From Porphyridium purpureum (Eukaryota), in contig VRMN01000008.1 of the NCBI GenBank assembly GCA_008690995.1, forward strand, positions 186,001-250,000: DNA of 64,000 bases. Reading direction: 5' to 3'. This document shows positions 6,944-60,202 of the stretch, piece by piece. The notes under the pieces are model-generated. The model was given only the letters and a program-made list of their open reading frames with translations. It was not told the origin of the DNA and searched no databases. How positions within the stretch are numbered: the stretch's first letter is position 1; every line of letters begins with the position of its first letter. Both the position numbers and the translations under genes were made by a program.

Positions 6944-8512
6944 ATGACTACTTTTCAAGGATGCGGTTTCATTGCCTCCGCGTCGAGCCTAAAACTTCCC
7001 ACACGAGCTGGTGCGGTGCACCGCTGCACGTGGAGCGAACATGCCGCTGATCAACGGCCCCGTGGTTGCAGGCGCGCCAAGCGCACAGCGCAATTCAGAA
7101 TGTCAGCGGAGGGTCGCGACGGGACTTCCGCATTGGTGATTGGACTGGATTTCGGTACGTCATCTGCCAAGGGCTGCGTGATACGTGCAAAGTCTCAGGG
7201 TGCAGAGGAGCGGCTTGTGTTTAGTTGCGAAGCGGTGACATATGAAGGGCAGACGCAGAGTGTTGAATCGTGGACGGACGCTCTGTATGCGCTGCTGATC
7301 CAGATCCCAGAAGCACTGCGCCGACGTGCGGTGCGTATCTCGCTCGACGCCACATCTGCCACCTCGATATGTTTGAACACAGCTCAAGTGCTCATGTACG
7401 ACCAAGGCGTTGGACGAGAAGTGGTTGAGCTTCTGAAGAAATATGCGCCAGCGGAGAGCTGTGTACTTTCAGGCTCATCGTCTCTTGCCAAGCTTGTATT
7501 TTGGTTGCTGGAATCTCCCCCGGCGGGCTCGGCGCTCAGGTTCTGCCACCAAGCTGACTTTCTTTTGCGCGCTCTTGTGGGATCTCCTGTCGAAGTCGAT
7601 GGCGCGTCACACCTTATCCGATACTTGAGGGAGCATGCGGCATTCACATCCGACTGGAACAATGCGTTAAAGTTGGGATATGACCCAGAAGCCGACGAGT
7701 ATCCTGCGTGGCTGATTGAAGGTCTGCTGAATGGCGATCCGAGTCTGAAGGACAAGCCTATTCCCGAACTTCCAAAAGTTGTTCGGCCTGGGGCTGTTTT
7801 GGGATCCGTGGGGTTTCCTTTCAATGCGCTGCTGCCTCCTGATTGTCAAGTGTGCGCAGGCACGACAGACTCAATTGCAGCATTTCTGGCGTCTGGCTGC
7901 TGCCAGCTTGGTGACGCATGCACGTCTTTAGGCTCTACGCTTGCTATCAAAATGCTCAGTCAGCGCCGTGTCGAAAGCGTGCAGCACGGAATCTACTCGC
8001 ACCGCTTTCCAACCTCGGGGTCAGCTTCCGATAGGCTGTGGCTTGTTGGCGGTGCTTCGAATTGCGGATGCCGTGTGCTGCGCGACCTCAAGTTTACAGT
8101 GGAGGAGCTGCGCGCCCTGAGTGAGGAAATTGATCCGCAGTCCCCGACTGGCTTCCACTTTTACCCGCTTCCACTGAATGCGACGAATGGTGAGCGATTT
8201 CCAGATGCGGACCCGCAGAAGATCAGCACCGTAGATCCGTCTGTTCGCCCACGCTCAAAATTGTTGCATGCGGTGTTTGAATCCATCGCGCGCGTGGAGC
8301 TCAGCGCATATGAAAAACTTTATGAGCTAGGCGCCGAGTGTAAGCAGCCACTTCGCCTGTTCAGTGCGGGAGGCGGTTCGGAAAATGGCACATGGTCTCG
8401 GATGCGTTCCACACTTATTTATGGCGTACCTGAAGCGCCGCAGATGTGTGCGGCTGAATCCTCCGAAGCTTGCTACGGTGCTGCTTTGCTCGCGGCTGAC
8501 TTTACGGAATAA
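6944..8512 (+). CDS. FGGY carbohydrate kinase (plastid D-ribulose/xylulose kinase-like)
   Basis: IGLDFGTSSAK, SDWNNALKLGYD, GTTDSIAAFLA, TSLGSTLAIK, WLVGGASNCG, GERFP; transit-peptide-like N-terminus. Confidence 0.9.
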   Translation: MTTFQGCGFIASASSLKLPTRAGAVHRCTWSEHAADQRPRGCRRAKRTAQFRMSAEGRDGTSALVIGLDFGTSSAKGCVIRAKSQGAEERLVFSCEAVTYEGQTQSVESWTDALYALLIQIPEALRRRAVRISLDATSATSICLNTAQVLMYDQGVGREVVELLKKYAPAESCVLSGSSSLAKLVFWLLESPPAGSALRFCHQADFLLRALVGSPVEVDGASHLIRYLREHAAFTSDWNNALKLGYDPEADEYPAWLIEGLLNGDPSLKDKPIPELPKVVRPGAVLGSVGFPFNALLPPDCQVCAGTTDSIAAFLASGCCQLGDACTSLGSTLAIKMLSQRRVESVQHGIYSHRFPTSGSASDRLWLVGGASNCGCRVLRDLKFTVEELRALSEEIDPQSPTGFHFYPLPLNATNGERFPDADPQKISTVDPSVRPRSKLLHAVFESIARVELSAYEKLYELGAECKQPLRLFSAGGGSENGTWSRMRSTLIYGVPEAPQMCAAESSEACYGAALLAADFTE

Positions 8513-13075: not shown

Positions 13076-16000
13076 TCAAAGCAGCAACAGCTGCTCTGGC
13101 AAAGCATTTAAAAGACGCTGAAGTGCCAAAGCAGTCCCGTCGTCCTCTGGAGGAGGAGCCAGACGACGAAGCGCACGAGCATGTATGACAGGCTCTTCAC
13201 TGATAGGTCCGCGCGGCTCTCGATCACCGTGATCGAGCGATTGCAGCATATCGGCAACTGTGAAGGCGTGCAGCAAACCTGCTCGCTCCCCTACCTTGCG
13301 GCGCTTTGGGGCGCGATCGCCACGTCGTTCGCTGACAAGAGCCGCGCCAAGAAGAACGAGATACCTTCGGCATATCGGCGAGCTGGATAGTAGCGCATGT
13401 CCAAACAGCGGAACAAGCACAGATGCGAGCTGCCGTTTGGATGCCGAGTCCATGAATTCGAGATCCATTACAGCGCGTGAACATGCAGCAAGCTGCATCG
13501 CACAATGGCGGACAGACTTTGCGGCTTGACCAATACTGCTGACGGTTCTGCTTCCTCCAAGACTGCCTGCTGTACTGCCCATGTCTTCCAAGCATAGCAT
13601 GACAAAGTCTTGGACTACGCGACCATGGAGTGCATGCGAAACCGCTGTTCCATCGGATGCACTTGACACACCAACGCACAGTGTAAATAGCTCTAAAGCT
13701 TGATCGAATGCTTTCTGCTGACGGGCGATGCAAAGCAGGACGTCCAAGGCGGAAGAGGGAAAGCGGATTGGCGCAGCGTCAGCAAGACTATGTTTCAGGA
13801 CTGAGACCGACTCAAGCGTTTGCCATAAGGGCTCAAGCAGACCCTCAACCTCAACGTTGAGGAGGATCTTATCTCGCACGCACGCTTCGTATCCGCTTTC
13901 AGCAATCACGCGATTCGCGACATACAGCGCGAACACCTTGAAACAATGTGCCAGGTCTTTACACATCGATCCATACTCCCCAACTGCCATACAATGGGCA
14001 ATTGTTGCGAGAAGATGCAGTGCTTCAGGCAAGAGCTCACCGACACACCATTCGGCGAGACTTGCCAACCACGCAAGTATGCCGTTCGATTGTACTACAT
14101 CCAGCGCAACTCCACTTACACTCCTGCAAATATCAGCGAGCGCGAGCAGGGCCGCGCGTTTCACCCCAATGTCCACGGAAGTATTCTCAGAAGAGATGAG
14201 CACCATCATGATTTCGTAAAGATGGCGGCGCTTCAGAATCAGGTGATCAGCCCATGTTCGAGTTCCTTCACGCATGAGCCGGATAACGGCCAGTCGCGCG
14301 GCCCGGATACCCTGCTCCACCGAATCCCCGGAGCGCACCGAAAAACTGTCTAGCGACAGCAAGTAGTTGAGAATCGGAGCGTCATCCAGGGCAAGCTGCG
14401 GCTTACTCAACCAAAAATGAGTCAAAGGCACGAACAATGCGTGGCCCGGGTTCATAAATATGTCAAGACTGAATCGCAAAAAGGCAGCCGTTAGCGGCAA
14501 GATGCGTTGCAAGGGCTCGGTCACTGCGTGGCGAAGCCGAATGAGAAAGAACACGAACTGTTTCCGCTCCTTAAAAAATGCAGCGGAGGGGTTTAGATGG
14601 CCATGCCGTCCTTCGAAAGCGTGCTCGCTCGAGCCATCGATGCTCAACGAAGCGTCCTTGTGGGTACCCTGAGTGCCGTATTTGCCACTACTTTGCACAT
14701 GTGCATTTTTGCCGGAAGATTCGGACGTCATCTGGAGTTCGGGAACTCGTCGCTCCTCAGTAATTTCCAAAAGACCAGCCAAAACGTTGTACGCATACAG
14801 GCGATCTTGATCATTGTTCGAGGACAACCACCAGATAGCACATCCGACCAACCCAGACCTCACCCAATGATCTAGATCCAGAATCTTGCCGGTTTCGTCT
14901 ACATTACGTGCGTCTTGAATAGCAAGGTGCATGTGCCGCAACACAAACATGGCGCCGTATGCAGTAAACTCGGGTGATTTGGACGGACGCGACGTTATCG
15001 CTTGTATTCTCGAAGGCTCCAGTTCTCCTAGAACTTGCGTCGAGTCCAGTGCAAGCAGGCCATGCCGGTAGTCACCAATTTTGGCGGAGGCCGCGTCAAG
15101 CTCCGGCAATCGATCAATCGCATTTGCGACACAGCGCATCAGCTCATCGCCCGGCGAATCGGAAGCCGAGTACAAACGTGAAGCAATGAGTTGCTCGATC
15201 GCCCCGATCGCGTGCAGTGCCTGATCCGGCATCGCCTCAGAAGTTGATAGGGATCCACAGACATGTTCCTGGATCAATACCTTCAAAAAGGCACCAAAAG
15301 CGCTGAGATTTGAATCAGCGAGGCATATTCTGCCGTACATATGAGATTTGTCACACACGGTCGTCTCAATCGTCTCTAGAATTTGTCTTATGTACGGTAC
15401 GGAAAGCTTCGATGTGTGTGAAAGCAGCATTGTGCAGGTCATGAGTGCACGATTCCACCCATCCATGATCTCGTCTTCATCCTTCGGGGACACCCAACAG
15501 ACCAGCTGCCGGCAAATAAACTCTGATACGAGAGCCGGGTCGAGATCGAGCCGATCTTTTTCCACTTGAATCAACCTTCGAAGCAGTGATCCGATAGCAT
15601 TCACCTGAAATGACGATGTCCCGCATCCGGTGTCACCAATCGCCAGAAGCACTTTCAAGTAAGACGACCAATGTCCTTCTTCGGCGACGTCACATGCCCA
15701 CTCCAGTATTCGGCTCGCTGTGGCATATCTTTTCCCACGTGATTGCGGCTTCAAGATGGAAGCCGCTCTCGCGATTCGAGAGTCAGACAATCGATCAGAT
15801 TCTGAGCACAGAGGAGAAAAGTCAATGGGCAAAGACAGAATCGTACTGCGGGCATCAGAGATTCCAAGCAAAACATCCACGACATTCAGTGCAAAAGCGG
15901 GACCGATTCCTCCGCCTTTGGAACAAGCTTGGCGCAAATGCACATGTACAAGGGATTCTGCAGATCTCGAGTTCATCTCGTAGAAAATGCAGGGCCAGAA

Positions 16001-19000
16001 CAAGGCAACATTCGATAATACCAAGAAGCGATCAAGCTGACTGGACCTGAAATCAAAACCGAGATTCGCATTCATCACAGTCTGCTGCCTTTCATGCCAA
16101 GCAGCAATTGATTTCTGCAGCGCGCAGGCCTCAAATGTACGAGCGTGCACTGATTCTGGCGTGCAAGTAAACGTCGAATTGCCGTTTTTGAACCAGGACA
16201 GGAGTCTTCTCCCGAACGATGCATGGCATGCTTGGCTATCCCGAATCAAAATGCTAAGCACGTCATCATCTATCGTTGAGTTCTGACGCACTATAGCTTC
16301 AGAGACTCGGTGCATTCGCACTAGCACAACGTTTCGCACGACTCGAATTCGGCTCGGGACAAACCAGAAGAGCAAGCGCTCGGCCAGCGGATGAGTCTCC
16401 ACGATTCTTTGCAAGCTGAGCACAACATGGCGATACTGAGACGTTGAGAGCATTTTTTCAGACACTTGTGCATCGTATCTGTGTTGAAAAAACAGTTGCA
16501 GGAACCATTTAACGAGCCTGCTGCAGTCAGCGGCATCGTTGTTCGATGCTTTGCTGTCCACTCTCAGGGCTGAGCTGAACAATTTGTCACAATCCTCCAG
16601 GCATGCATTCACAAGAAATGCGCCCAGGGATAAGCGCCCTGGTGGCGCACGAGACGAAGTATCCACGGCGAGAACAAGACAGCCGAATCCCAGGGCTGCA
16701 TCACACTCCGACGACTCTATCTTCCCAACGATATACTTCGCGACCTCGCGAAACCTCCTATCACGCCTTGCGCTCTCTGCACTGTTGTACAGCTTGTCTG
16801 TATCTCCCGGTTGGCTGCTCCAAAGAAGCTCGGCAAGGATGGTCTCAAAAATTAGCAATGGATTCGACGGGAGTTTGTCTAAGCTCGGCAGTACGTGGTC
16901 GCACAAAGAAAGACAAGGGTCTGAGATAGAAAGATTGTCTTTCATCCGCTGGTCCTGTTCCGGAGTCAGAGATCCGCAGTTCATCAAGCTGATGAAAGCA
17001 TGATACGTTTCGAAGCGCTTTCGTGCGTGCTCATCGCAGATATGCACAACAAGTACCTTGTCCGAGCCGGACTTTTGTTTTCGAGAGCGCTCACGCGCTA
17101 GCACGTCATCAACAAATGCGATCAGCTCAAACGGATGCATGTTTGAATCCTTTGCCAAGGAAGACTCCATCCGTTCTGCGACCAAACGGAGAGTGTCTTG
17201 GGCGCTGGTTCTTAGGAGACTGACGAACGCCTCAAAGAGCTCAATGAGCCTCTCCTGTTCACCCTGGGAGCGCGCGATACGGTAAAGTAAACTCACAAGA
17301 AGAATGCTCAGGCCACCGCGAGTCATGTCCGTTCCTGAATCCCCGACAGGCAAAAAGTCGAGGAACATGTGAGGCTTCAGCTTCGCACTCACAAGCAATG
17401 AGCCGATTTCAACACAAAAGCTGAAATTTTCAGAGTCACTTCTTTCGCATCGAGGGCGCTGACGGCACACGGCACATATTGAATTTAACCACAGCAAATG
17501 TTCCATTCCGCTTTCGGGAGGTTCGGCGTCAGCAAACAGTCCAGTTGAAAGCATGAGCGTGCCTACTAGGCGCTCAAGCTGAATTTTCATTGTCAAAGCT
17601 TCTTGTCCAATTGATTCCTTGAGCTCCGGCTCCCTGTCTGTAGCATATTCAAACAACAATTCGGAAAAGAAGGAACAGCTTCGGCTATCAACCATTCTCT
17701 GCTTAGAGAGAATCTGAAAAGCACCTTCGCTCCATGTTTCACACGCACGTTGACAAAAGTCGAGGGCCGCAAACAAACCCATTCTCCCGCAGTTCAATCG
17801 CAAAGCCTGAAACGAACCAGGAGCGACGAACTTTGCAATGTCAAGGTGATTTCGGTGCAGCTGCTCCGGAAAAATGTCGAGAAATGACGTCAGCACGCGA
17901 AGTATGGCATCATGCTCAAGGCTTCGTATGCAACCGGCGCTAACGCTGTGAACAGGAACTTCAAGTTTAGCCTTCAGCGAAAGTAGTACATGCCAGTCCG
18001 GGTAGCGAACACGCACAGAATTCCAAAACAAAGCTCGCGACCCGGTGCTTTCTACAGTACTGCGAGTCGCAGATGAAGTCGATGAGCAAGATAACACCCT
18101 GTCACAGACATCCTGCAGCAATCTAGAACCCATGAAGGCACTGACCTTCTTCTCCGTTTCAAATAAGGTAAGCAATCGTTTTGCTCGCCGCAGAAGAAAT
18201 TCCAGCGATGCCAAACTCTCGAAGCGCACCAACGCATCGGCGTTCGTCAAGCCCGCACTGATGCAGCGAGCAACGTGTTCAGGCGCGAGCAGATTCAGAG
18301 CAATTCTAGAAACTAGGCTAGGCCAGGAAGAACTGGGATTTGAAACATCGACGATTGCTCCCTTCGGGCCAGTATCAGAAGAGCTCGTGCTCACCGGCCC
18401 TTGGCGGCTGACCTCACAAAAGTCGCGTGGAAGGCTAACTTGACTCAAAAGAGCAGCTTGGACGACAGCACACGCACCGAAAAAGTCAACTGATAAGCCA
18501 GGAGATTCAAGATGCGGCACCGCTCCTGTGGCGGTGAGCAGTTCTGGAACGCAATCCAGACGGCGCGCAATGATCTTTTTCACAAAGGTAAACGAGCGCG
18601 CACTGTAAACTTTGCAGCATTCGTGAATAAGCCGTACGACGTTGGTTGTATCCAGCAGCGCTCGAGGTTTTTGAACAAGCACGAGAATGGTAAGAAATCC
18701 TTCTATGTAGTTCACAAGCGGTTCGAGGTCGCGGACTTGACATGCTAAGGAAAAGAAGCGCGCCAATGTAGAATTGAACTCTGTTCGGAAACGCACCGCA
18801 TGGTCAAATGAAGAGGCTGCATCGAAGATGACGCCACTTGCCGAACGTCCCGCAATAGTCCGTCGCCTAAGCAAAGCACGAACCAGCTTGTGGCCCAAGG
18901 CTTTGAAAAGATCACTGTATAAATGCACTCTGTGCGAGCGTGCTGACTTTGAGAGAGGCTTTCTCGCTTTAGCGCCACCAATGCGTCCATTTGGCATCAA

Positions 19001-19711
19001 AGTATGCATCGAATTCGCAATTGCTTCCAATGCTCGGGACAGGTTCCGGAGAACGGCGCCAAGGTTTCGGGGTTCCACTGCTTCAATCATTGCGATGACA
19101 AAGCGGATGCAAGCTTCATGCGTGCTACTGTCACTTCGCGCATGCAGCGTGAGGTACCTAGAGCCCAAGTCAAATCTGGCAGAGATCTCATTCACCATGG
19201 GCGTGCCCTTCCTTGCAAGGCTTTCGAAGAGCTCGAGCATCAACGCGGCCGGCTCGTCTCTTCCCTTCTTCAGCACATTGAACAAAAGCGACGAATGCTT
19301 TCGAAGTAGATCGCGAACGAGCTGGTTTGCTGCATGTCCTGAGCCAACCGTCACAATCTGCACGAGTGCGCGAATCGCCAATGCTCGCCGCATCACGCCT
19401 CGCGCATCGTCTTCGACGATCTGCAATATTTCGTCCGCGCTGGGACTTACCGACAAAAACGCGTCGACGCGATCGCGCTTCGCCGCCGCAGAGTCCTCGG
19501 TGCGCTCCGTCGAGCCACCATTGAACTGCTTGAACGCTCGGATCGCTGCATTGCGAGCGTCCGGGTCTTTCGGATACTTGATGCTGCGCCGAAGCACAGA
19601 GACAAATTCCGTGGCGTCAAATGCATCATCGTGCTGCTCTACGACCCTGCGTGTCCAGTCCAGATCCGCCGCCGCCGCCGCAGCCGCCGCCGCGTCAGCA
19701 TCTTCGTCCAT
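13076..19711 (-). CDS. URB1: Nucleolar pre-ribosomal-associated protein 1 (URB1/Npa1-like), 2211 aa
   Basis: Large helical protein with N-terminal FLSVSPSADEIL; the C-terminal block FKERKQFVFFLIRLRHAV...FMNPGHALFVPLTHFWLSKPQLALDDAPIL resembles the NopRA1 domain. Confidence 0.8.
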   Translation of the reverse strand: MDEDADAAAAAAAAADLDWTRRVVEQHDDAFDATEFVSVLRRSIKYPKDPDARNAAIRAFKQFNGGSTERTEDSAAAKRDRVDAFLSVSPSADEILQIVEDDARGVMRRALAIRALVQIVTVGSGHAANQLVRDLLRKHSSLLFNVLKKGRDEPAALMLELFESLARKGTPMVNEISARFDLGSRYLTLHARSDSSTHEACIRFVIAMIEAVEPRNLGAVLRNLSRALEAIANSMHTLMPNGRIGGAKARKPLSKSARSHRVHLYSDLFKALGHKLVRALLRRRTIAGRSASGVIFDAASSFDHAVRFRTEFNSTLARFFSLACQVRDLEPLVNYIEGFLTILVLVQKPRALLDTTNVVRLIHECCKVYSARSFTFVKKIIARRLDCVPELLTATGAVPHLESPGLSVDFFGACAVVQAALLSQVSLPRDFCEVSRQGPVSTSSSDTGPKGAIVDVSNPSSSWPSLVSRIALNLLAPEHVARCISAGLTNADALVRFESLASLEFLLRRAKRLLTLFETEKKVSAFMGSRLLQDVCDRVLSCSSTSSATRSTVESTGSRALFWNSVRVRYPDWHVLLSLKAKLEVPVHSVSAGCIRSLEHDAILRVLTSFLDIFPEQLHRNHLDIAKFVAPGSFQALRLNCGRMGLFAALDFCQRACETWSEGAFQILSKQRMVDSRSCSFFSELLFEYATDREPELKESIGQEALTMKIQLERLVGTLMLSTGLFADAEPPESGMEHLLWLNSICAVCRQRPRCERSDSENFSFCVEIGSLLVSAKLKPHMFLDFLPVGDSGTDMTRGGLSILLVSLLYRIARSQGEQERLIELFEAFVSLLRTSAQDTLRLVAERMESSLAKDSNMHPFELIAFVDDVLARERSRKQKSGSDKVLVVHICDEHARKRFETYHAFISLMNCGSLTPEQDQRMKDNLSISDPCLSLCDHVLPSLDKLPSNPLLIFETILAELLWSSQPGDTDKLYNSAESARRDRRFREVAKYIVGKIESSECDAALGFGCLVLAVDTSSRAPPGRLSLGAFLVNACLEDCDKLFSSALRVDSKASNNDAADCSRLVKWFLQLFFQHRYDAQVSEKMLSTSQYRHVVLSLQRIVETHPLAERLLFWFVPSRIRVVRNVVLVRMHRVSEAIVRQNSTIDDDVLSILIRDSQACHASFGRRLLSWFKNGNSTFTCTPESVHARTFEACALQKSIAAWHERQQTVMNANLGFDFRSSQLDRFLVLSNVALFWPCIFYEMNSRSAESLVHVHLRQACSKGGGIGPAFALNVVDVLLGISDARSTILSLPIDFSPLCSESDRLSDSRIARAASILKPQSRGKRYATASRILEWACDVAEEGHWSSYLKVLLAIGDTGCGTSSFQVNAIGSLLRRLIQVEKDRLDLDPALVSEFICRQLVCWVSPKDEDEIMDGWNRALMTCTMLLSHTSKLSVPYIRQILETIETTVCDKSHMYGRICLADSNLSAFGAFLKVLIQEHVCGSLSTSEAMPDQALHAIGAIEQLIASRLYSASDSPGDELMRCVANAIDRLPELDAASAKIGDYRHGLLALDSTQVLGELEPSRIQAITSRPSKSPEFTAYGAMFVLRHMHLAIQDARNVDETGKILDLDHWVRSGLVGCAIWWLSSNNDQDRLYAYNVLAGLLEITEERRVPELQMTSESSGKNAHVQSSGKYGTQGTHKDASLSIDGSSEHAFEGRHGHLNPSAAFFKERKQFVFFLIRLRHAVTEPLQRILPLTAAFLRFSLDIFMNPGHALFVPLTHFWLSKPQLALDDAPILNYLLSLDSFSVRSGDSVEQGIRAARLAVIRLMREGTRTWADHLILKRRHLYEIMMVLISSENTSVDIGVKRAALLALADICRSVSGVALDVVQSNGILAWLASLAEWCVGELLPEALHLLATIAHCMAVGEYGSMCKDLAHCFKVFALYVANRVIAESGYEACVRDKILLNVEVEGLLEPLWQTLESVSVLKHSLADAAPIRFPSSALDVLLCIARQQKAFDQALELFTLCVGVSSASDGTAVSHALHGRVVQDFVMLCLEDMGSTAGSLGGSRTVSSIGQAAKSVRHCAMQLAACSRAVMDLEFMDSASKRQLASVLVPLFGHALLSSSPICRRYLVLLGAALVSERRGDRAPKRRKVGERAGLLHAFTVADMLQSLDHGDREPRGPISEEPVIHARALRRLAPPPEDDGTALALQRLLNALPEQLLLL

Positions 19712-19820
19712 TCCGTTTGCTCGGCACTCGTCTGCACGGCCGCAACGCGCACGCCCTGGCCGAATCGGTTCCGCAAGTTTAAACCGTTAACTGAATCGGC
19801 GAAAGTTCATTCCTTTGGAG

Positions 19821-19836
19821 GTACAGTTCACTGTAC
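19821..19836. promoter_or_regulatory. Inverted pair GTACAG-ttca-CTGTAC between URB1 and the hotdog gene
   Basis: Read directly in the ~190-bp divergent spacer. Confidence 0.55.
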
Positions 19837-19900
19837 TTTTGCACTGCGGACAGGCTTGGCTCGCAGTCTGGTCAGCCATGTGCGGCGTTTGTGTGCGCCG

Positions 19901-20383
19901 ATGGCCGCCTCGTTCCCGACGGTGCGCAGTCTGCTGCGGCACCGCGAGCCGCTTCTGTTTCTCGACCGCATCCAGGCCCAGAATGTCGGGGACTGGTGCC
20001 TCGCGCGCAGCGCCGCATGCACGAACAGTGAAAGTGGGTGGGGCCGCTTTGATGTGCTGGAGATGCTCGGACAGTGTTCCGCGCTTATTCTCGCACAAAT
20101 GCCCAAGTACAAGGACTCGGGCGTGCCGGTGTTTGCAGCCATGAACTGGGTGCGGTGGAAGGAACTGGACACCGTCGTACCGGAAACAAAGTTGGACGTC
20201 TATGCCAAGCTCGATCCGACCCGCTCACGAACCAGCATGGGCACTGTTCGTGCATGCGCGGGTTCGCTCAAGCCAGAGGATTTCAGCGAAGGGAGCACGG
20301 GTTTGATCTTTGATAGGGGCAGCTGGGTTTGTGAAGCAGAACTTGTATTTGCATTCGTTCCAAGTACACACACGACCAGATGA
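19901..20383 (+). CDS. Hotdog-fold FabZ/FabA-like acyl dehydratase, divergent
   Basis: LLRHREPLLFLDRI (cf. LPHRYPFLLVDR), LEMLGQ (cf. EAMAQ), FAAMNWVRW, VCEAELVF. Confidence 0.7.
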   Translation: MAASFPTVRSLLRHREPLLFLDRIQAQNVGDWCLARSAACTNSESGWGRFDVLEMLGQCSALILAQMPKYKDSGVPVFAAMNWVRWKELDTVVPETKLDVYAKLDPTRSRTSMGTVRACAGSLKPEDFSEGSTGLIFDRGSWVCEAELVFAFVPSTHTTR

Positions 20384-20468
20384 TGCTGGATTTCGCAAGC
20401 TAAATGACGGCCAAAAATCTTTAAACATGGAGACCGATCAACACGCACTCACAGAAGCGCTCTCCAGC

Positions 20469-21896
20469 TCATGCGCCCATGGCATATCGCATAATGCGGT
20501 CCTTGATCCCTGGTGCGGAGGAAATAATGCCAGTGCCCATGGCTCGAATCGCAGCCGCGACCGGACCGGGCGTCTTGTAGATGCGGCCGACGGCGTCAAT
20601 CGACATAATCATGGCTACGTTTTTGAGCAGACGATCTTTTTGATAATTGAGCAGCACCGCGCCCCCGTCTCCCCCCAGATCGCGCCCGCATTCCGCGGCG
20701 CACATCAGCCTGTTCGCCATGCTGGCTGCATCTGCAAGTCCAAGATTGACCCCTTGCCCAGCGAGCGGATGAACCGCATGAGCAGCATCGCCGAGCAAAG
20801 CGACTCGCCCATTCACGTATTGTGGCGCATGTCCAAAAACGAGAGGAAAGGTTGCTCGCTGCGACCCGGCCGCAAGACTTTTGAAATCTAGGGCGTGAGG
20901 TCCCGTGAGAGCGTCTCTTAGCTCCTCGATGAACTCTGTTTCCGTGCAATCCTGCAAAAGCATGGCCTCTGTGTCTGATGTGGACCAAACCACATTCATG
21001 ACGGTTTCGCCGCTCGCGAGGTGACGAATGGGTAGAAGAGCAATCGGTCCCGTGGGGAGAAAGTTCTGGAAAGCCGTCGAAGATATCGAACTCGCCCCTG
21101 GCTTGTCCTGTTTCTGTTCATCTCCGGAAACTATCACGTTGGCAACAACCGCTCGTTGCTCGTACGAGAAAGAAAACCATGGCATCGAAAAGAGCTTTCG
21201 TATATTGCTGTTTCGTCCGTCCGTCGCCACAAGAACCCGGGCGGTCAATGGTTGGGGTGTGCGCTGGATCACAGGCCATTCGTCGCCGCGGGGATTATAC
21301 ATGACGTCACGGACCGGCTCTGCAAAAATATCTAGACACGAAGGAGCGCTCGTACTATTTTCGTTTTGAACGTCGCGCAGCTGAGAGTACAGCGCCGAAA
21401 GCAATGTTTCGTTCTCCACGACGGACGCCATGTACTCGGGCTGCTGCGTCCGACTGGCAGCACTTGCGTCAAAGTTGAGTACGCTTGCTGCGTGCAGCGC
21501 AGCGCTGGAGTATCCCGTGTGATCCCATACCACCATGCGTTTGACCTTTGGCCTGCGCAACTCTGGAATTCTCTGCCACACGCCACAGCTTTGTAGCACA
21601 GCCTCTGACTCGACTGTGATAGTGCTCGTGCGCAAGCTGACATTCCGATCCTTTTGCTCCCCATACTCATGTTTTGCGTCTTCTTTTCCGGCACGTTCCA
21701 GAAACGCATGTGCGTTTGGCTCAAACAGCGCGACGCGCAGACGCCGCTGGCTGGTCAACAAGCACGCCACGGTCGCTCCAACAATGCCACCTCCGCTAAT
21801 AACCACATCATACCAAGCATCCGATATCTTTGTTGCGTATGCGCGGCGGGCCGGTGCCCGCCACAACGCACAAGAATTGCCAACACGACGCATCAT
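20469..21896 (-). CDS. COQ6: Ubiquinone biosynthesis FAD monooxygenase COQ6 (UbiH family)
   Basis: DVVISGGGIVG, DGRNSNIR, AFQNFLPTGPIALLP, RVALLGDAAHAVHPLAGQGVNLG; mitochondrial presequence MMRRVG. Confidence 0.9.
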   Translation of the reverse strand: MMRRVGNSCALWRAPARRAYATKISDAWYDVVISGGGIVGATVACLLTSQRRLRVALFEPNAHAFLERAGKEDAKHEYGEQKDRNVSLRTSTITVESEAVLQSCGVWQRIPELRRPKVKRMVVWDHTGYSSAALHAASVLNFDASAASRTQQPEYMASVVENETLLSALYSQLRDVQNENSTSAPSCLDIFAEPVRDVMYNPRGDEWPVIQRTPQPLTARVLVATDGRNSNIRKLFSMPWFSFSYEQRAVVANVIVSGDEQKQDKPGASSISSTAFQNFLPTGPIALLPIRHLASGETVMNVVWSTSDTEAMLLQDCTETEFIEELRDALTGPHALDFKSLAAGSQRATFPLVFGHAPQYVNGRVALLGDAAHAVHPLAGQGVNLGLADAASMANRLMCAAECGRDLGGDGGAVLLNYQKDRLLKNVAMIMSIDAVGRIYKTPGPVAAAIRAMGTGIISSAPGIKDRIMRYAMGA

Positions 21897-22274
21897 CTGC
21901 GACTCAACCTTTCTCCCCGCACGCTTCCTCCATCTCCACCTCAACCACAAGCTTCCCGCACAACCAGAAGAAAGCGCGTGTAATTTCTCATGTAATTTTT
22001 CACGCCGCACTGTACCGCCTCTCCGAATATTGGAATTACACGTCTCGTAAATTCCGGAGTCAAATTACAACGCAAATTGCATCTGCGCAAGTGGTGCGTT
22101 GCGAGAATGAATCGGGAAGAAAGCGCAAGTTGTCGACGAGCGTCTGTGGCAGGAAGGAAGGGTCTGCGTTTGACAGACTTGCCGCGAGCCCCGCCGCCTT
22201 GGTACCTGCGCGGCAATCGGAGTTCTCTTGAGAAACGAAACCTGCGCGGCGGTTACCTTCATGCGCGCAGCGAA

Positions 22275-53025: not shown

Positions 53026-53670
<645 letters not shown>

Positions 53671-54056: not shown

Positions 54057-55421
54057 TTAATATACGCGGACGTTGGAAGAAGGTATTTCGTCCGACATTG
54101 TGTTCCCTGCGGCGACCGTCTCGCCAGAATTCGACGCAGCCCCTTCTGAGCTACCCTGCTCTTGCTTCTCATAATCATAAGCAATTTGCATGAGGCTGGC
54201 GTGGCACAAAGGGCACACTTTCTTCCGTCCGATGAGAACCCAATTTGACAGGCACTCGGAATGAAAGACGTGCGTACACGGTAGAAGGAAAATCTCTTGC
54301 TGGCTCTCCTCTTCTATCATCGCTTCTAGACAGATGGAGCATTCTTCGCATTCGCGCTCCTCGACAACTCGTTGCCGCTCCTCAGCGGGAACGAGACAGG
54401 TGAATTCTAAAGCACGGATGATCCGTCGCCGCCGACTGGACGGCCCCTTTTTCTGAGGAGTCTCCACTCCGTCCGGCATCATAGGACGCATATCCTCCTC
54501 CGCCACATAGCGGCGTGCGTGCAGAACGGCAAACAAAACTGAAATCATCCACAGGCTCCCCATAATTAAGGTAGTCACAAGAACAAACCAAAATCCAGTC
54601 GAGCTAGAGTCATCCAATCCGGAGCCCATAGAGACGGTTCGCGACTCGCCCGGCTTCACCCAACAAGCGTATCGGTCCACTGGGTCAAAGGATGAGTTCA
54701 CCGTGTTTGCTTCGCTTTCCGAAAGCCAGTACGAGGGTGATGGTCCCCAGTACGCCACGACCGACTCATCCGGCGGAACTGGCTCCGAGCTGCCGGATAC
54801 TTTGTAATCACGAACCCGAAACTCCACGCGGTAATTCCAATTATTCGGCGGATTGTCGCATCGCCTCAGGCAAGAGCCTTGCACCTTTGAGCTAGTGACC
54901 TCGCAGTTCGTCTTGTCCCAATCGGCGGTGTTCTCACCCTCGGTTGCAAAGATCACGGTCACCACGATACCGCCACTAACAATCAGAAACAGCAGGCAAA
55001 GGTATATCATGTAAGGCAGCGGCACCATTCTCACGTGACGCATAAAATGCTTGTACCATCCGACGAAACCCGTCGGTCGCGGCGGGCGCTCGAGCATCCC
55101 ATCCCTGTTTGGGTCGGCACCATCGTCCCCGAGACCTCCGTCCCGCCGTTGCGGCTCCCCGTCAACCCTCGCTTCCATGTTCTCGCGGTTCACCTCACGA
55201 CTGGCCGCATCATGACGCAACGGCGCGTGTGGGGTGTTGATTCCCGCCGCGGCCGTTTGTGCGGCGTCGTCCAGCACGAGCGAGTCCAACACTCCCGACC
55301 GCACCGAGAATGACGACTGCATGTCTCCCTGCGCGGCGCCGCTCGCGCGCAGCCCACCACCAGCAGCCGCATCCGCGCGCGCTGCGTCGCTCTCACTCGA
55401 AAACACCCTGTCGCGCTCCAT
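54057..55421 (-). CDS. Two-TM membrane protein with Cys-containing loop and C-terminal RING-H2 E3 ligase domain
   Basis: TM1 YMIYLCLLFLIVSGGIVVTVIF, TM2 FWFVLVTTLIMGSLWMISVLFAVL; CSICLE...LPCTHVFHSECL..W...CPLC. Confidence 0.88.
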   Translation of the reverse strand: MERDRVFSSESDAARADAAAGGGLRASGAAQGDMQSSFSVRSGVLDSLVLDDAAQTAAAGINTPHAPLRHDAASREVNRENMEARVDGEPQRRDGGLGDDGADPNRDGMLERPPRPTGFVGWYKHFMRHVRMVPLPYMIYLCLLFLIVSGGIVVTVIFATEGENTADWDKTNCEVTSSKVQGSCLRRCDNPPNNWNYRVEFRVRDYKVSGSSEPVPPDESVVAYWGPSPSYWLSESEANTVNSSFDPVDRYACWVKPGESRTVSMGSGLDDSSSTGFWFVLVTTLIMGSLWMISVLFAVLHARRYVAEEDMRPMMPDGVETPQKKGPSSRRRRIIRALEFTCLVPAEERQRVVEERECEECSICLEAMIEEESQQEIFLLPCTHVFHSECLSNWVLIGRKKVCPLCHASLMQIAYDYEKQEQGSSEGAASNSGETVAAGNTMSDEIPSSNVRVY

Positions 55422-56431
55422 CTGCCACTCTTCGCGCTTCCGCCAAGCACGACCCCTTACGTCCCGACTTTCACCCGCGCGCACTTTCCCACGTCACCGC
55501 ACGGCTACGAATCGCGTGCCGTTTAACGCCGCCGCCGCTCGCCAAACCTCCGATACTGGCGCGTGGTCCACGGCTAATGCATTTCCCTCCTCCCACCGCA
55601 AGCGCGCCGCCTCCGACTCGCCGTGGATCCCCTTCTCCGACAAGCTCTTACCAAGCTCACAAGTCACACGCTACACGCGTCTTGGTACACGCGGAACGAC
55701 GTCAGCGCGCCTTCCAAATCGTGCTATCAAGCTGCACCTTTTTCCATATGTCCCATGCCCCTCCTGCTCATCATTTGGTTTGAGAGAAGGCAAGAACAAA
55801 GAGCGAGGAGGGAAGGAGAGAAAGATCCAGCGACCGAGCGAGAGCCAAGAGAGCGAAGAGAGAAAGAAATTAGCGGGATAGGAGCGGGTGGAACGCGCGC
55901 CGATTTGGCGATGACTGCCGCGCAAACGGCGTACGTGCAGCGTCGTCGAATTCAGCACACGCGCGGGTGGAACGTGAAAAGGCTGTACCGCGGGATCGAG
56001 CGTCTGGGACACAGACCTTGCGTCAGTTCGACGTTTAGAAGGCTGATGCGATGTGAGCCACTTTTGTGCGCTGACGTGCAGAATGCCGTGCGCACGGTCT
56101 GCCGTGTGCGCAAAAAAGCTAAAGCGGTCTAAATTTACACACACGTGTCAATCACCAACCGCAGTCTGAGCGTTGGCGCGTCGTTGCCACTCGGACGGCA
56201 GTACTTGGAACTTGCGCTTGGTCTGGCGCGCTTGGTCGTGGTCGGGCTTGTTGTCGAAGGCAAGGGCCTGGCTGCCTGCATCGCGCAAAGAGACGAAGGT
56301 TGCTTGTACAACACGGCCCTGCGCTTGCGAACGCGCAACAAAGTAGCGTCGATTCGGCTCACCACTTGATCTTCGTCCTGTTGGCGCGCGGGCTCGCTGG
56401 CTGCGGAGAAACCCTGAAACAGAAGGCTGAG

Positions 56432-56475
56432 GTACAGTGGTATGATGCGGCGCGTGTATGTACAGTGCACTGTAC
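56432..56475. promoter_or_regulatory. GTACAG plus perfect palindrome GTACAGTGCACTGTAC upstream of the RNase P RNA
   Basis: 56432-56437 and 56460-56475. Confidence 0.55.
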
Positions 56476-56538
56476 TTGGTTCGGGGACGAAGACGGCGGC
56501 AGCGCACGACGCAGGGTGAAGAAAACCGGATGGACAAG

Positions 56539-57068
56539 AGGGGTAGGGCTGAAGTGTGCCTTGGGGAACGCGCTCGCATGGACGTGTGTACAGACGGAGC
56601 GCAGTGCCCGAGAGGGCGCCGTCGCTCGTAGGAGATTTACAGCATCACGTGGAGAAGGTCTTGGCAATACCCCGTCCTCCCCGGCGGCGGCGTGTCTGCT
56701 GTCCGGGGCGGTTTTCCGAGACGGACCCGTCATTGATCGTGTACATGGCGGCCGGCCAACAAGAAATGCTCGCCCCGTCGGTTTCCGGCGGGGTCGCACC
56801 CGCATGGCCCCGGATTCGTCGTCCGTGAAGCGATAGCTGCGGCCTGCAGCGCGGCGGTGGCGCCTGGGCGCCCCCCGCCGTGCTGCGCAGGATCCGCGCC
56901 GCTGAGATGGCCGGTCTTGTGCGGTGCTTGGAACATGGGTCGGTGGGGTGACTTGATAATCAGTGCAATGTGTGAGGGGCAGTCCAACCTGATGTTTGCG
57001 CAGCAGGGAAGGATCGCCTAACCCAATCAAGACTACGATGTTCCCAGGATACTTCAGCCCTCACCCCT
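56539..57068 (+). ncRNA. Nuclear (eukaryotic-type) RNase P RNA, ~530 nt
   Basis: CR-I GGAGAAGGTCTTG 56651-63; CR-V AACCCAATCAAGACTAC 57020-36; P4 GGTCTTG/CAAGACT; CR-IV AGTGCAAT 56962-69; CR-II ACAAGAAA 56759-66; CR-III TGAGA 56903-07; P1 56545-57/57049-61; P2 56573-79/56970-76. Confidence 0.88.
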
Positions 57069-57072
57069 TTTT
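57068..57072 (+). terminator. T5 run, Pol III-type terminator candidate
   Basis: TTTTT immediately after the 3' strand of P1. Confidence 0.55.
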
Positions 57073-57184
57073 GCCCCAAAGAGAACGAGATAGAGAAAGA
57101 AGAATACAGGGCTCTTTTTCAGAGGCATTCGTGTCCGACGTCGTCGGAAAGGCTCCGCATTTCATCGACGTGATCCCTACCTTC

Positions 57185-58906
57185 TTATCGCTTTTTACTG
57201 ATCCCGCGCGCAAGTCTACCTTTTCTCTCTGCGCGTTTCGCGAGCTTGGCACGCTCACGACTTACCTTGGTCACCACGGGCCTGCGCTCTAGCTTCCGCA
57301 GTTGGCGCCTATCTGTAGAGGCGAGTTCGAGCATCCACGCTGGCACGTTTGCCCCACTTGCAGCCGCCACAACTGCGACGGCCTTCAGCAGGGGCTGGTC
57401 TTCCTGGCTGAACATGGTGAACGCGCGACTCTGCTCGCTCGTCTCTCCGGCCGCTATCCCGCGACCTGCGCGACCAATGCGATGAACGTACGTCACGGCA
57501 CTGGTGGGGAAGTCGAAATTGATTACCGTGTTCACGCCGCGAAAGTCCATTCCTCTGCAGAGGAGATCCGTTGTTACCAAGGCCCACACAACGCCCGATC
57601 GAAAGTCATCTACGACGCGCTGCCGATGAGAGTGAGACAATCCGGCGTGCATGGCAGCACAACCACTGATGTCCTCGCTCAACGCTTTGTGTACCCATTG
57701 CGCGCGGTCCTGGGTCTGCACAAACACCAGAGCAGGTGCCATTATGCGATTCTCTCGCAGCAGATTCCGCACAGCAAGAACCTTGGCACGATCTCCTGCG
57801 ATTCCACCGTTGCCGACGAAAACAAACTCTTGCTCGACACGCTCAGCCACCTCCTGTACAGCTGCCGTGCCTCCGTACGAAGCGGCGCCCACCACAATTT
57901 TCACATGGCTCTCCGCTTTCGTGTCTAAAACATTCGGCACCAAAGTCTGTGACAACGTGGCCGAGAAAAGGTGCTTCTGGCACCCTTTGCCGCGCTTCAA
58001 GCCCGTTCCGCAAGCCTGAAGAATCCCTTGCACTTGCTCATAGAATTGACCTACTTCAAACATCTTATCGGCTTCGTCGAGCACAACATGCTGCACATAC
58101 TCGAGCCGAATAAAGCCCTTTACCAGCTCGCTGGATAGGCGCAGGGGAGTTGCGATCAAAATATCCACACCCTTGCCCTCGTTACTATGCAACCCAGCAG
58201 CGTGCGCTCGAGTGACCAGCAGGCGACACTTCACGCCTCGAGCCAGTGCTTCACGCTCGATAACCAACTGCTCGAGGAAAAGGTCGCACACACGACATAT
58301 TTGCTGCGCAAGCTCAATGGTGGGCGCCAGAATCACAGCCTTGGGCAGTTCAAGTCGCTTCAGTTTGCTCTTCTCCTTCAGCGTGTGCCGCAGGCGCATA
58401 ACGTGAACGACCAGTGGCACCAAAAATGCGAACGTCTTGCCGGATCCAGTGGGAGCCACTGCTACGACTTGTTTGTCCAGGAGCATGCAGGGGATCACTT
58501 GACGCTGCACAGGCGTCGGCTGCAGTGCGTGGATGGCTGCCAAAGCATTCGGCACAGCAACATTCAAATTATACGGAGCATCGCAAAGGTCCACAAAGCT
58601 TTCCAGCGGATCGGGTAGATCAGTTAGTCGCGACGCATTTTCGACTTTGATCTTTAGTTGGTTTCTCAGCGCATTCGATCGCTCGCGATGCGCGAGGCTT
58701 TCGTCAGAAGCCCCTTTGCTGCCGGCTTTCTCCCTGGCCGTTCGTGTACCTTTCGTTGCGAATTCAGGCTGCGGCACTGCCGTGCGCGCGTCTTTCGACT
58801 TGGCACCAGCCCCAGCTTCGCTGTTCGGCCCCTTAATCCTCTTGCCCACATTTTGCGAACTGCCTTGCACGCCACCCATGAGCGCGCGCAGCACGGCATT
58901 GTCCAT
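57185..58906 (-). CDS. ROK1: DEAD-box RNA helicase ROK1/DDX52
   Basis: PTPVQRQVIP, APTGSGKT, DILIATPLRL, DEADKMFE, FSAT, PALVFVQT, YVHRIGRAGR; N-terminal NALRNQLKIKV..LPDPL. Confidence 0.9.
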   Translation of the reverse strand: MDNAVLRALMGGVQGSSQNVGKRIKGPNSEAGAGAKSKDARTAVPQPEFATKGTRTAREKAGSKGASDESLAHRERSNALRNQLKIKVENASRLTDLPDPLESFVDLCDAPYNLNVAVPNALAAIHALQPTPVQRQVIPCMLLDKQVVAVAPTGSGKTFAFLVPLVVHVMRLRHTLKEKSKLKRLELPKAVILAPTIELAQQICRVCDLFLEQLVIEREALARGVKCRLLVTRAHAAGLHSNEGKGVDILIATPLRLSSELVKGFIRLEYVQHVVLDEADKMFEVGQFYEQVQGILQACGTGLKRGKGCQKHLFSATLSQTLVPNVLDTKAESHVKIVVGAASYGGTAAVQEVAERVEQEFVFVGNGGIAGDRAKVLAVRNLLRENRIMAPALVFVQTQDRAQWVHKALSEDISGCAAMHAGLSHSHRQRVVDDFRSGVVWALVTTDLLCRGMDFRGVNTVINFDFPTSAVTYVHRIGRAGRGIAAGETSEQSRAFTMFSQEDQPLLKAVAVVAAASGANVPAWMLELASTDRRQLRKLERRPVVTKVSRERAKLAKRAERKGRLARGISKKR

Positions 58907-59254: not shown

Positions 59255-60202
59255 CTACTTCTTTCTCATGTATCGCTCCCAGCGGCGGTGGTTCAAGCCG
59301 GAGAGATCTGAGAGTTCTGCAATACACTCCAAGTATTCCGAAAGCTTGAGCAATTCGCGATCGGTTGCCCGCAAAGTGTGCGCATTTTTGAAAGGCCGGA
59401 TCTTTAAGCCATTCTGTGGGTTCATGATAAAGTTCCGTGACAAGTCATCGAACATAATGGTGTTGTGAGGTGCATAGTGGCACCTTAGCGTCTGCCAAAT
59501 GTAGCCCAGCGGCTTGCAATTGAACACCCGTTCTTCGTGTTGCACTGTCACCATGGCAAGATGATCCACCAACATCGTGATTTTGTAGTCTGAGTGCGAG
59601 AGCACCCCAAGCTCCTCCATCTTAACTTTGATCCACTTCATGTTTGTTGCGCTCCAGATGATGATGTCGTAATGCCGATACGCGATCGTCAAAAATTCGT
59701 GCAGGAACGGGCGCATCAGCTCGTGCGCGTGTTCCGCGTTACTGCGATGGTCAAACAATGTGTAGTCAATGTCAAGGACAAGCAGCTTCTTGCCCTCCCT
59801 CGGTGGATTCAGAGGCTCCAATTTGTAGTTTTCGACTCGTCGCGCAAGCTTCTGCAAATTCTCCGGGCGCGTACATGTTTCCATCAGCGCGGCGCCGTCC
59901 GCGCCGTCCAGGTCGAGGTCATCGTCAACCTCAGGCAGCGGATTATTCGCCTCATCAAACTTGAACGTCTCGATTTCGGCATCCGGGGTCCCCATCAACA
60001 TAATTTGCTTGGGGAGCGCCAGCTCGCTTAACTTGCGGTCGTCGCGCGCCGGCTTGCCGCCTTCTTTCAGGTTCAGCAGCTTCTGCCGCTTCACATCGAC
60101 ACATGTCTGCTTAAAAAGCGCATGCTTCAGCCCGCCCACCGTCGCATCGTCCGCCACTTCAACCACGAGCGTCCGGCCCTGCCACTTGACCTGTATCTCC
60201 AT
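59255..60202 (-). CDS. UBLCP1: Ubiquitin-like domain-containing CTD phosphatase
   Basis: N-terminal UBL (VKWQG...RQKLLNL...LMGT); LLVLDIDYTLFDHRS; NTIMFDDLSRNFIMNPQNGLKIRPF. Confidence 0.95.
   Translation of the reverse strand: MEIQVKWQGRTLVVEVADDATVGGLKHALFKQTCVDVKRQKLLNLKEGGKPARDDRKLSELALPKQIMLMGTPDAEIETFKFDEANNPLPEVDDDLDLDGADGAALMETCTRPENLQKLARRVENYKLEPLNPPREGKKLLVLDIDYTLFDHRSNAEHAHELMRPFLHEFLTIAYRHYDIIIWSATNMKWIKVKMEELGVLSHSDYKITMLVDHLAMVTVQHEERVFNCKPLGYIWQTLRCHYAPHNTIMFDDLSRNFIMNPQNGLKIRPFKNAHTLRATDRELLKLSEYLECIAELSDLSGLNHRRWERYMRKK

What the first reader, a model, noticed from the sequence alone, without database searches (positions are those of the whole stretch)
56539..57072. Hidden nuclear RNase P RNA gene in an apparent intergenic gap
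Seen in sequence: all five conserved regions occur in order. CR-I GGAGAAGGTCTTG (56651), CR-II ACAAGAAA (56759), CR-III TGAGA (56903), CR-IV AGTGCAAT (56962), CR-V AACCCAATCAAGACTAC (57020). The helices are consistent: P4 pseudoknot GGTCTTG/CAAGACT; P1 AGGGCTGAAGTGT/ATACTTCAGCCCT plus GGGAAC/GTTCCC; P2 CTCGCAT/GTGTGAG; P3 ACGTG/CACGT; P7 TACCCCGTC/GGTGGGGTG; P10/11 GACCCGT/ATGGGTC and GCCGGCCA/TGGCCGGT; a P19 hairpin at ~56977-57019; then T5. Established knowledge (recalled): human H1 RNA has GGGAAGGUCUGAG, AGUUCAAU and AACCCAAUUCAGACUAC at these positions, whereas MRP has a GUCCCC/GGGGC-type P4. Land plants use protein-only PRORP, and nuclear P RNAs have been hard to find in Archaeplastida. 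Inference: this alga keeps an RNA-based nuclear RNase P, and ORF-based annotation would miss the gene. I cannot confirm it is unreported.
Basis: partly seen in the sequence, partly recalled or inferred. Interest (0 to 1): 0.9.

Follow-up and report, generated by a model that had tools for sequence, protein, structure and literature searches.

The report
Red alga's nuclear RNase P RNA
This protein-free stretch of a red algal genome matches the standard model of the RNA part of nuclear RNase P and likely encodes the catalytic RNA that trims the front end of new tRNAs; it is an expected member of a well-known family rather than a surprise.

Summary
The feature is real. Rfam's nuclear RNase P model matches 56561-57047 (+) end to end at 38.5 bits (cut-off 28, E 8e-08), the only hit in the window. 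Two P4 pairs differ from the consensus on both sides and still pair. An eight-base CR-IV and CR-II/CR-III mark it as P, not MRP. One total-RNA run shows contig depth of 15,000-22,000 against 0-6 on the neighbouring gene; two DNA runs show no rise over the gene. The host is likely a Porphyridiales red alga. Reviews say red algae lack PRORP and name only Cyanidiophyceae among Archaeplastida as lacking an identified RNase P, so an RNA-based enzyme is expected here. The key survey (Lechner 2015) could not be read, so prior listing is open. No relatives, protein partners or activity were tested. The scan earlier noted such genes in fungi; its look-ups returned no look-alike of this sequence. Verdict: new member of a known kind, interest 0.3.

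The parts
56539..57068 (+). Nuclear RNase P RNA gene, about 530 nt, 64% G+C; ends inferred from the outermost P1 pairs, not mapped
   Evidence: Rfam RF00009 56561-57047; P1 pairing to 56539/57068; RNA contigs
56539..56570 (+). P1 5' strand: four segments of 6, 13, 3 and 7 pairs with 57039-57068 (29 pairs in all)
   Evidence: 13-pair segment has pairing probability 0.99
56573..56579 (+). P2 5' strand, pairs with 56970-56976
56582..56650 (+). P3 domain with large internal loop (eukaryote-type; likely Rpp20/Rpp25 and Pop1 site, recalled)
   Evidence: strain variant at 56635 lies in the loop
56651..56664 (+). CR-I and P4 5' strand (56660-64 pairs with 57027-31); U56659 is the likely metal-binding uridine (position inferred)
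   Evidence: alignment; PMC10966300 section 6
56665..56667 (+). Possible 3-pair P5-like stem with 56953-55 (unproven)
   Evidence: 13% of shuffled 11-base windows hold the partner triplet (1207 of 9400)
56668..56673 (+). P7 5' strand, pairs with 56945-50
56679..56708 (+). Inserted 12-pair hairpin between P7 and P8, absent from the Rfam consensus
   Evidence: insert; pairing probability about 0.7
56715..56725 (+). P8, 3 pairs with loop GAGAC (or 4 pairs with a 3-base loop)
56727..56751 (+). P9, 7 pairs
56752..56757 (+). P10/11 5' strand, pairs with 56938-43 (preferred register)
56758..56767 (+). CR-II (first T-loop strand)
56768..56927 (+). Expanded P12 region, 160 nt, with firm hairpins at 56772-94 and 56846-86; base of P12 not resolved
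56928..56933 (+). CR-III (second T-loop strand), identical to the Rfam consensus UUGGAA
56962..56969 (+). CR-IV, eight bases with A1, G2 and A7 (P type)
   Evidence: PMC13184271
56977..57019 (+). P19, extended
57020..57036 (+). CR-V and P4 3' strand; 15 of 17 bases equal the Rfam consensus, the two changes being the P4 partners
57068..57072 (+). T5 run, likely RNA polymerase III terminator; a second T5 at 57115-19
54057..55421 (-). Upstream neighbour, divergent: RING-finger membrane protein (context only)
57185..58906 (-). Downstream neighbour, convergent: DEAD-box helicase (context only)

Best explanation
The stretch 56539-57068 matches the nuclear RNase P RNA family and likely encodes the catalytic RNA of the nuclear RNase P of a red alga (likely Porphyridiales), predicted to cut the 5' leaders off precursor tRNAs together with a set of protein subunits. 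Shown: family match, order of the five conserved regions, helices, compensatory P4 pairs, RNA contigs over the gene. Inferred: RNA polymerase III makes a transcript of about 530 bases that stops at the T5 run; it folds into a catalytic domain (P1-P4, P19) and a specificity domain (P7-P12); Pop1, Rpp29, Pop5, Rpp30, Rpp21 and P3-binding proteins assemble on it; the CR-II/CR-III T-loops grip the tRNA elbow while CR-IV with Pop1 holds the acceptor stem; two magnesium ions at P4, one bound by the conserved uridine, cut the leader. The extra 230 bases over the 301-position model sit in peripheral arms (P1, P3, a hairpin before P8, P12, P19) and likely leave the core unchanged.
For: Rfam RF00009 full-length hit, best of its clan, only hit in 64 kb; 3' third alone above cut-off. 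P4 pairs 3 and 4 are U-A and G-C where the consensus has G-C and A-U. Eight-base CR-IV, CR-II/CR-III present, P7 starting 3 bases after the P4 strand: the P-type features of PMC13184271. The MRP P4 consensus of PMC1796607 is not matched. RNA run X18: depth 21196, 15117 and 22228 in the three bins inside the gene against 0-6 on the helicase gene, of which a 506-base contig has no differences; X19, same study: 440-447 over 56742-57009 against 0.1-9 on the helicase gene. DNA runs X8 and X16 show no rise over the gene. In X8, 2 listed substitutions in 530 bases of the gene against 15 in 1117 upstream bases; the three variants seen inside the gene (56635, 56713, 56915) miss all conserved regions. 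Host: best named relative of the window's sugar kinase is Timspurckia, Porphyridiales. Rhodophyceae lack PRORP (PMC10941002); the P-specific subunit Rpp21 was found in the red alga C. merolae (PMC1636426). Mechanism from PMC10966300.
Against: Score is modest (38.5 bits, printed bias 16.6) and the 5' 241 bases alone give no hit. Two MRP-like traits: P8 loop GAGAC matches 4 of 5 positions of GARAR, and a 3-pair P5 next to CR-I is possible. No relative was found, so no covariation across algae. No TATA, A box or exact B box in 56250-57130, and a T4 run lies inside the gene at 56712-15, so polymerase III is not shown. RNA evidence is from contigs only: no strand, no ends, depth is a poor measure, and the runs were chosen with this stretch; X19 has no contig over 56608-56741; X5 (RNA by guess) shows only 45 against 188 on the RING gene; X20 has one contig at depth 2.9. 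The variant count leaves out 5 rows not shown. Protein subunits and a separate MRP gene could not be sought (no genome). Host assignment rests on one of three protein searches.
Confidence: 0.92

Rival explanations
1. It is the RNase MRP RNA (pre-rRNA processing), or one RNA serving both P and MRP roles.
For: P8 loop GAGAC is close to the MRP hallmark GARAR and a 3-pair P5 next to CR-I can be drawn (features in PMC13184271). MRP RNA is described in red algae (PMC2996960).
Against: Rfam keeps RNaseP_nuc as the best clan match for the whole RNA and for its 3' third. CR-IV has eight bases, whereas MRP has 'rigorously six'. CR-II and CR-III, which MRP lost, match the P consensus. The MRP P4 consensus is not matched. 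The MRP bit score itself is hidden by the clan filter and was not seen.
Confidence: 0.03
2. [quoted passage not shown]
For: Large insertions relative to the consensus; no recognisable promoter; the rest of the genome could not be searched for a second copy.
Against: Core motifs and P4 are intact; high RNA contig depth with 26 of 34 contigs laid at 99% or more in X18; DNA depth does not rise over the gene; fewer strain differences than upstream DNA.
Confidence: 0.03
3. It is a plastid or mitochondrial rnpB moved to the nucleus, or a chance arrangement in G+C-rich spacer DNA.
For: Red algal plastids carry rnpB (PMC4264200); G+C-rich DNA pairs easily (many alternative stems); a loose motif pattern hit 2 of 100 shuffles.
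Against: The best clan match is the nuclear model, not a bacterial one, with E 8e-08; eukaryote-type P3 loop; compensatory P4 pairs; high RNA depth.
Confidence: 0.02

Closest known systems
Nuclear RNase P RNA (Rfam RF00009; human H1/RPPH1, yeast RPR1)
   Same: Five conserved regions in order, P4 pseudoknot, P1-P3, P7-P12, P19, eight-base CR-IV, CR-II/CR-III; CR-V 15 of 17 and CR-III 6 of 6 equal to the Rfam consensus.
   Different: About 530 bases against a 301-position model; 29-pair P1, inserted hairpin before P8, 160-base P12 region, long P19; two swapped P4 pairs; purine-rich P8 loop, whereas human and yeast P8 loops are described as not purine-rich (PMC13184271).
RNase MRP RNA (Rfam clan CL00002; human RMRP, yeast NME1)
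   Same: Shared catalytic domain, P3 and P19; GARAR-like P8 loop (4 of 5); possible short P5.
   Different: Eight-base rather than six-base CR-IV; CR-II/CR-III kept; P4 sequence of the P type; P7 present.
Expanded RNase P RNAs of Plasmodium
   Same: Extensions in P3, a P8-side helix, P12 and P19, as listed in PMC1636426.
   Different: Sequences were not compared here; resemblance is in which arms grew.
Plastid rnpB RNAs of red algae (bacterial type)
   Same: Same enzyme family and same host group (PMC4264200).
   Different: This RNA is nuclear-type and lies among nuclear genes such as histone H3 and Dim1.
PRORP, protein-only RNase P of green algae and land plants
   Same: Same reaction.
   Different: Unrelated catalyst; reported absent from Rhodophyceae (PMC10941002).

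Membership tests
Nuclear RNase P RNA (RF00009) | Covariance-model score above the gathering threshold, best in clan | tested here: met
   38.5 bits against 28, model 1-301; 3' third 30.5 bits
Nuclear RNase P RNA (RF00009) | CR-I and CR-V forming the P4 pseudoknot | tested here: met
   5 of 5 model pairs, two changed on both sides against the consensus
Nuclear RNase P RNA (RF00009) | CR-II and CR-III flanking P12 | tested here: met
   56758-67 and 56928-33 in the Rfam alignment; T-loop fold itself not tested
Nuclear RNase P RNA (RF00009) | Eight-base CR-IV with A1, G2, A7 | tested here: met
   56962-69; criterion from PMC13184271
Nuclear RNase P RNA (RF00009) | P7 several bases after CR-I, no P5 | tested here: inconclusive
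   P7 begins 3 bases after the P4 strand, but those 3 bases could pair as P5 (chance about 13%)
Nuclear RNase P RNA (RF00009) | Eukaryote-type P3 with internal loop | tested here: met
Nuclear RNase P RNA (RF00009) | Discrete, abundant transcript of the + strand | tested here: inconclusive
   High contig depth confined to the gene in X18 and X19 (one study); strand and ends not shown by contigs; not enriched in X5
Nuclear RNase P RNA (RF00009) | Covariation of helices across related algae | tested here: inconclusive
   5 of 5 loci fetched by pattern were chance matches; runs X21 and X24 laid nothing
Nuclear RNase P RNA (RF00009) | Pop1, Rpp29, Pop5, Rpp30 and Rpp21 encoded in the same genome | not testable with these tools
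   No genome held
Nuclear RNase P RNA (RF00009) | RNA-dependent pre-tRNA 5' cleavage | not testable with these tools
   Needs bench assay
RNase MRP RNA | Six-base CR-IV | tested here: not met
   Eight bases
RNase MRP RNA | MRP-type P4 consensus | tested here: not met
   Consensus of PMC1796607 against 56654-63 and 57021-34
RNase MRP RNA | Loss of CR-II/CR-III | tested here: not met
   Both present
RNase MRP RNA | GARAR pentaloop on P8 | tested here: inconclusive
   Loop GAGAC, 4 of 5; a 3-base loop register also pairs
RNase MRP RNA | 3-pair P5 adjacent to CR-I | tested here: inconclusive
   Possible but not above chance
Bacterial/organellar rnpB | Best match to a bacterial-type model | tested here: not met
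   Best clan match is the nuclear model

The most novel reading that the evidence does not exclude
This red algal RNase P RNA is a mosaic relic close to the common ancestor of P and MRP: it keeps the P-type tRNA anchors but also an archaeal-like P5 stem followed by an adenine (56665-67 with 56953-55, A56956) and an MRP-like purine-rich P8 pentaloop docking on P4. It would then be the first described nuclear P RNA of its order and the seed that finds the missing P RNA of Cyanidiophyceae.
Probability: 0.1. Interest if true: 0.6.

Novelty: new member of a known kind. Interest (0 to 1): 0.3.

Why it matters
It gives a full-length, apparently well expressed nuclear RNase P RNA for a red algal lineage in which surveys of 2006 and 2010 found none (PMC1636426, PMC2996960), and it fits the view that red algae kept the RNA enzyme while green plants switched to PRORP. 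Its practical value is as a seed for a red-algal covariance model to look for the RNase P that is still unidentified in Cyanidiophyceae (PMC4919922), and as a bench target: none of the ten searches returned a paper whose title or abstract start points to an experimental study of a red algal nuclear RNase P. It does not overturn anything.

Tried and rejected
Whole-genome search for protein subunits, MRP RNA and PRORP: no genome held. Search for relatives by DNA pattern: 1 metagenome match in a bacterial coding sequence, 3 matches in prokaryote genomes and 1 in a viral contig; none of the 5 has an RNase P hit; all rejected as chance. The metagenome pattern was an exact 20-mer and too narrow to reach other genera. 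Runs X21 and X24 of other organisms laid nothing at 80% (no proof of absence). A first spaced pattern in the window found 0 because its gap was set too short. Two of three protein searches did not place the host; cluster look-up gave no names. Protein-coding reading: 0 Pfam families for ORFs 56148-56579, 56359-56805 and 55755-56132, and strain indels that shift the frame at 56192-56243. Promoter: no sigma-70-type site (not relevant to a eukaryote), no TATA, A box or exact B box (consensus patterns recalled). No tRNA gene in the window. A weak ceN126 snoRNA match (E 8.9) rejected. A K-turn in P12 could not be placed convincingly by eye. The missing X19 cover at 56608-56741 proves nothing either way. 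Papers not held and not seen: Lechner 2015, Piccinelli 2005, a 2021 RNA Biology paper on MRP asked for by recalled DOI, a 2010 P/MRP review asked for by recalled id.

Full report
Observation. A default Rfam scan of the 64-kb window gives one hit: RNaseP_nuc (RF00009), 56561-57047, + strand, model positions 1-301, 38.5 bits against a cut-off of 28, E 8.1e-08. Where clan members overlap only the best is kept, so MRP and the bacterial and archaeal models score lower or not at all; their scores were not shown. The 3' third alone gives 30.5 bits with no composition bias; the 5' 241 bases alone give no clan hit. The 519-base strand folds better than all of 100 shuffles (z -3.17).

Anatomy. P1 has 29 pairs in four segments, the outermost (56539-44 with 57063-68) ending at a T5 run at 57068-72. 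P2, a eukaryote-type P3 with an internal loop, P7, P8, P9, P10/11 and P19 can all be drawn with standard pairs. In P4 the five pairs of the Rfam model are kept, and pairs 3 and 4 read U-A and G-C where the consensus has G-C and A-U; these are the only two differences from the consensus in the 17 bases of CR-V. This double compensation is the strongest single sign of a functional RNA. The RNA is about 530 bases against a 301-position model, the extra length lying in P1, P3, a 12-pair hairpin before P8, a 160-base P12 region and P19.

Correction. Rfam aligns CR-III at 56928-33, identical to its consensus, and pairs 56751-57 with 56938-44, which also leaves room for P9. Constrained folding favours this arrangement (ensemble -243.2 against -237.8 kcal/mol).

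P or MRP. PMC13184271 (passages) lists the features that separate the two: P has an eight-base CR-IV, CR-II/CR-III T-loops and P7 some bases after CR-I; MRP has a six-base CR-IV, a 3-pair P5 next to CR-I and a GARAR loop on P8. Here CR-IV has eight bases with A1, G2 and A7, CR-II and CR-III are present, and the MRP P4 consensus of PMC1796607 (passages) is not matched. Against this, the P8 loop GAGAC matches GARAR at 4 of 5 places and 56665-67 can pair with 56953-55. The second is expected in 13% of shuffled windows (1207 of 9400), and the Rfam P consensus carries similar letters at both places, so it may be nothing special.

Expression and copy number. Of 24 runs listed, 8 were laid. In X18 (random-primed RNA-seq) the three bins inside the gene have depth 21196, 15117 and 22228, against 0-6 over the convergent helicase gene, of which a 506-base contig has no differences from the window. 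X19, of the same study, has 440-447 over 56742-57009, no contig over 56608-56741, 0.1-9 over the helicase gene and 91 over the RING gene. X5 (RNA by guess, library not on record) has 45 against 188 and 17, as a poly(A)-selected library would give (inference). X20 has one contig at 2.9. DNA runs X8 and X16 show no rise over the gene; X21 and X24 laid nothing. All are contigs chosen with this stretch: they give no strand, no ends and a poor measure of level, so this is a strong hint from one study, not proof. The three variants inside the gene (56635, 56713, 56915) avoid the conserved regions; X8 lists 2 substitutions in the gene's 530 bases, 15 in 1117 upstream bases and 6 in the 1722-base helicase frame (5 rows were not shown).

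Host and context. The window holds long uninterrupted eukaryotic frames: histone H3, Dim1, condensin, a COP1-like RING-WD40 protein (name recalled) and others; 20 of 27 frames scanned had a Pfam family. The best named relative of the sugar kinase at 6944-8512 is from Timspurckia oligopyrenoides, Porphyridiales (E 1e-102, next hit 5e-86). Two other protein searches did not place the host. With about 55% G+C and DNA runs of 18-31 million letters, Porphyridium is my guess, from recalled genome properties. The gene lies between a divergent RING gene and a convergent DEAD-box gene. No TATA, A box or exact B box was found in 56250-57130.

How it likely works. Shown: family match, conserved regions, pairing, RNA over the gene. 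From established work on yeast and human RNase P (PMC10966300, passages and section 6; PMC13184271): the CR-II/CR-III T-loops, steadied by Rpp21, stack on the tRNA elbow; CR-IV with Pop1 holds the acceptor stem; two magnesium ions at the CR-I/CR-V core, one bound by a conserved P4 uridine, cut the 5' leader. Inferred: that this RNA does the same in the algal nucleus, that U56659 is that uridine, and that polymerase III makes it and stops at T5. The internal T4 at 56712-15 and the absent promoter boxes leave the polymerase open.

What is known. PMC1636426 (passages) found no P RNA in C. merolae but did find Rpp21; PMC2996960 (passages) thought loss in red algae not unlikely. PMC4919922 (passages), citing Lechner 2015, names Jacobida, Cyanidiophyceae and Nuclearia as the lineages without an identified RNase P, which implies, by my reading, that other red algae had one assigned. 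PMC10941002 (passages; its figure is not held) says Rhodophyceae and Glaucophyta have no PRORP. [quoted passage not shown] PMC4264200 and PMC3858429 (passages) concern plastid rnpB. Passages of PMC11740979, PMC8509007, PMC5039416, PMC6380272 and PMC3978253 added nothing on red algal nuclear P RNA. The 8 supplementary files of PMC13184271 hold none of six red algal names (figures there are not readable). Lechner 2015 and Piccinelli 2005 were not held, and their supplements bear directly on whether this sequence is already listed. Ten searches listed no paper that, by title and abstract start, describes a Porphyridiales nuclear P RNA. The scan's own notes hold nuclear P RNA genes from fungi, and no look-alike of this sequence.

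Verdict. A genuine nuclear RNase P RNA gene (confidence 0.92), an enlarged but orthodox member of RF00009, expected in a red alga and found by a default scan, possibly already catalogued. Interest 0.3. The bold reading, a P RNA that keeps ancestral P5 and MRP-like P8 traits, has probability about 0.1.

Noticed in passing
window 56460-56475: Perfect 16-base palindrome 64-79 bases upstream of the inferred 5' end, with its half-site repeated at 56432; the only one of this length in the window, where about one is expected by chance. Possible upstream promoter element.
   Followed up: partly
window 55824-56540: Low-depth RNA contigs upstream of the gene (X18 56172-56348, X19 56137-56540, X5 55824-57095). 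Could be a 5'-extended precursor, antisense read-through or DNA; strand unknown.
   Followed up: partly
window 56712-56715: T4 run inside the RNA gene; a variant at 56713 breaks it in about half of the X18 depth and in X20. Suggests four T do not stop transcription here.
   Followed up: no
window 57058: An X19 contig of 2300 bases leaves the window's sequence here, a few bases before the end of P1, and runs on in unrelated sequence; probably a library chimera at the RNA's 3' end.
   Followed up: no
window 56192-56243: The same three indels (4 and 14 bases absent, 1 added) appear in X5, X18 and X19, and a close version in X8, but not in X16: strain polymorphism or an assembly error in this spacer.
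   Followed up: partly
window 550-2946: Methylmalonyl-CoA mutase with B12-binding domain, a vitamin B12-dependent enzyme in this alga.
   Followed up: no
window 53110-53670: Histone H3 whose N-terminal tail looks diverged around residues 20-35 (comparison with canonical H3 recalled).
   Followed up: no
window 59255-60202: UBLCP1-type phosphatase; no red algal name among the best 120 of 1588 relatives shown, many of which carry no name.
   Followed up: no
L003 1131-1196: Fluoride riboswitch (43.3 bits) in a chance-fetched Chitinophagaceae locus; unrelated to the finding.
   Followed up: no
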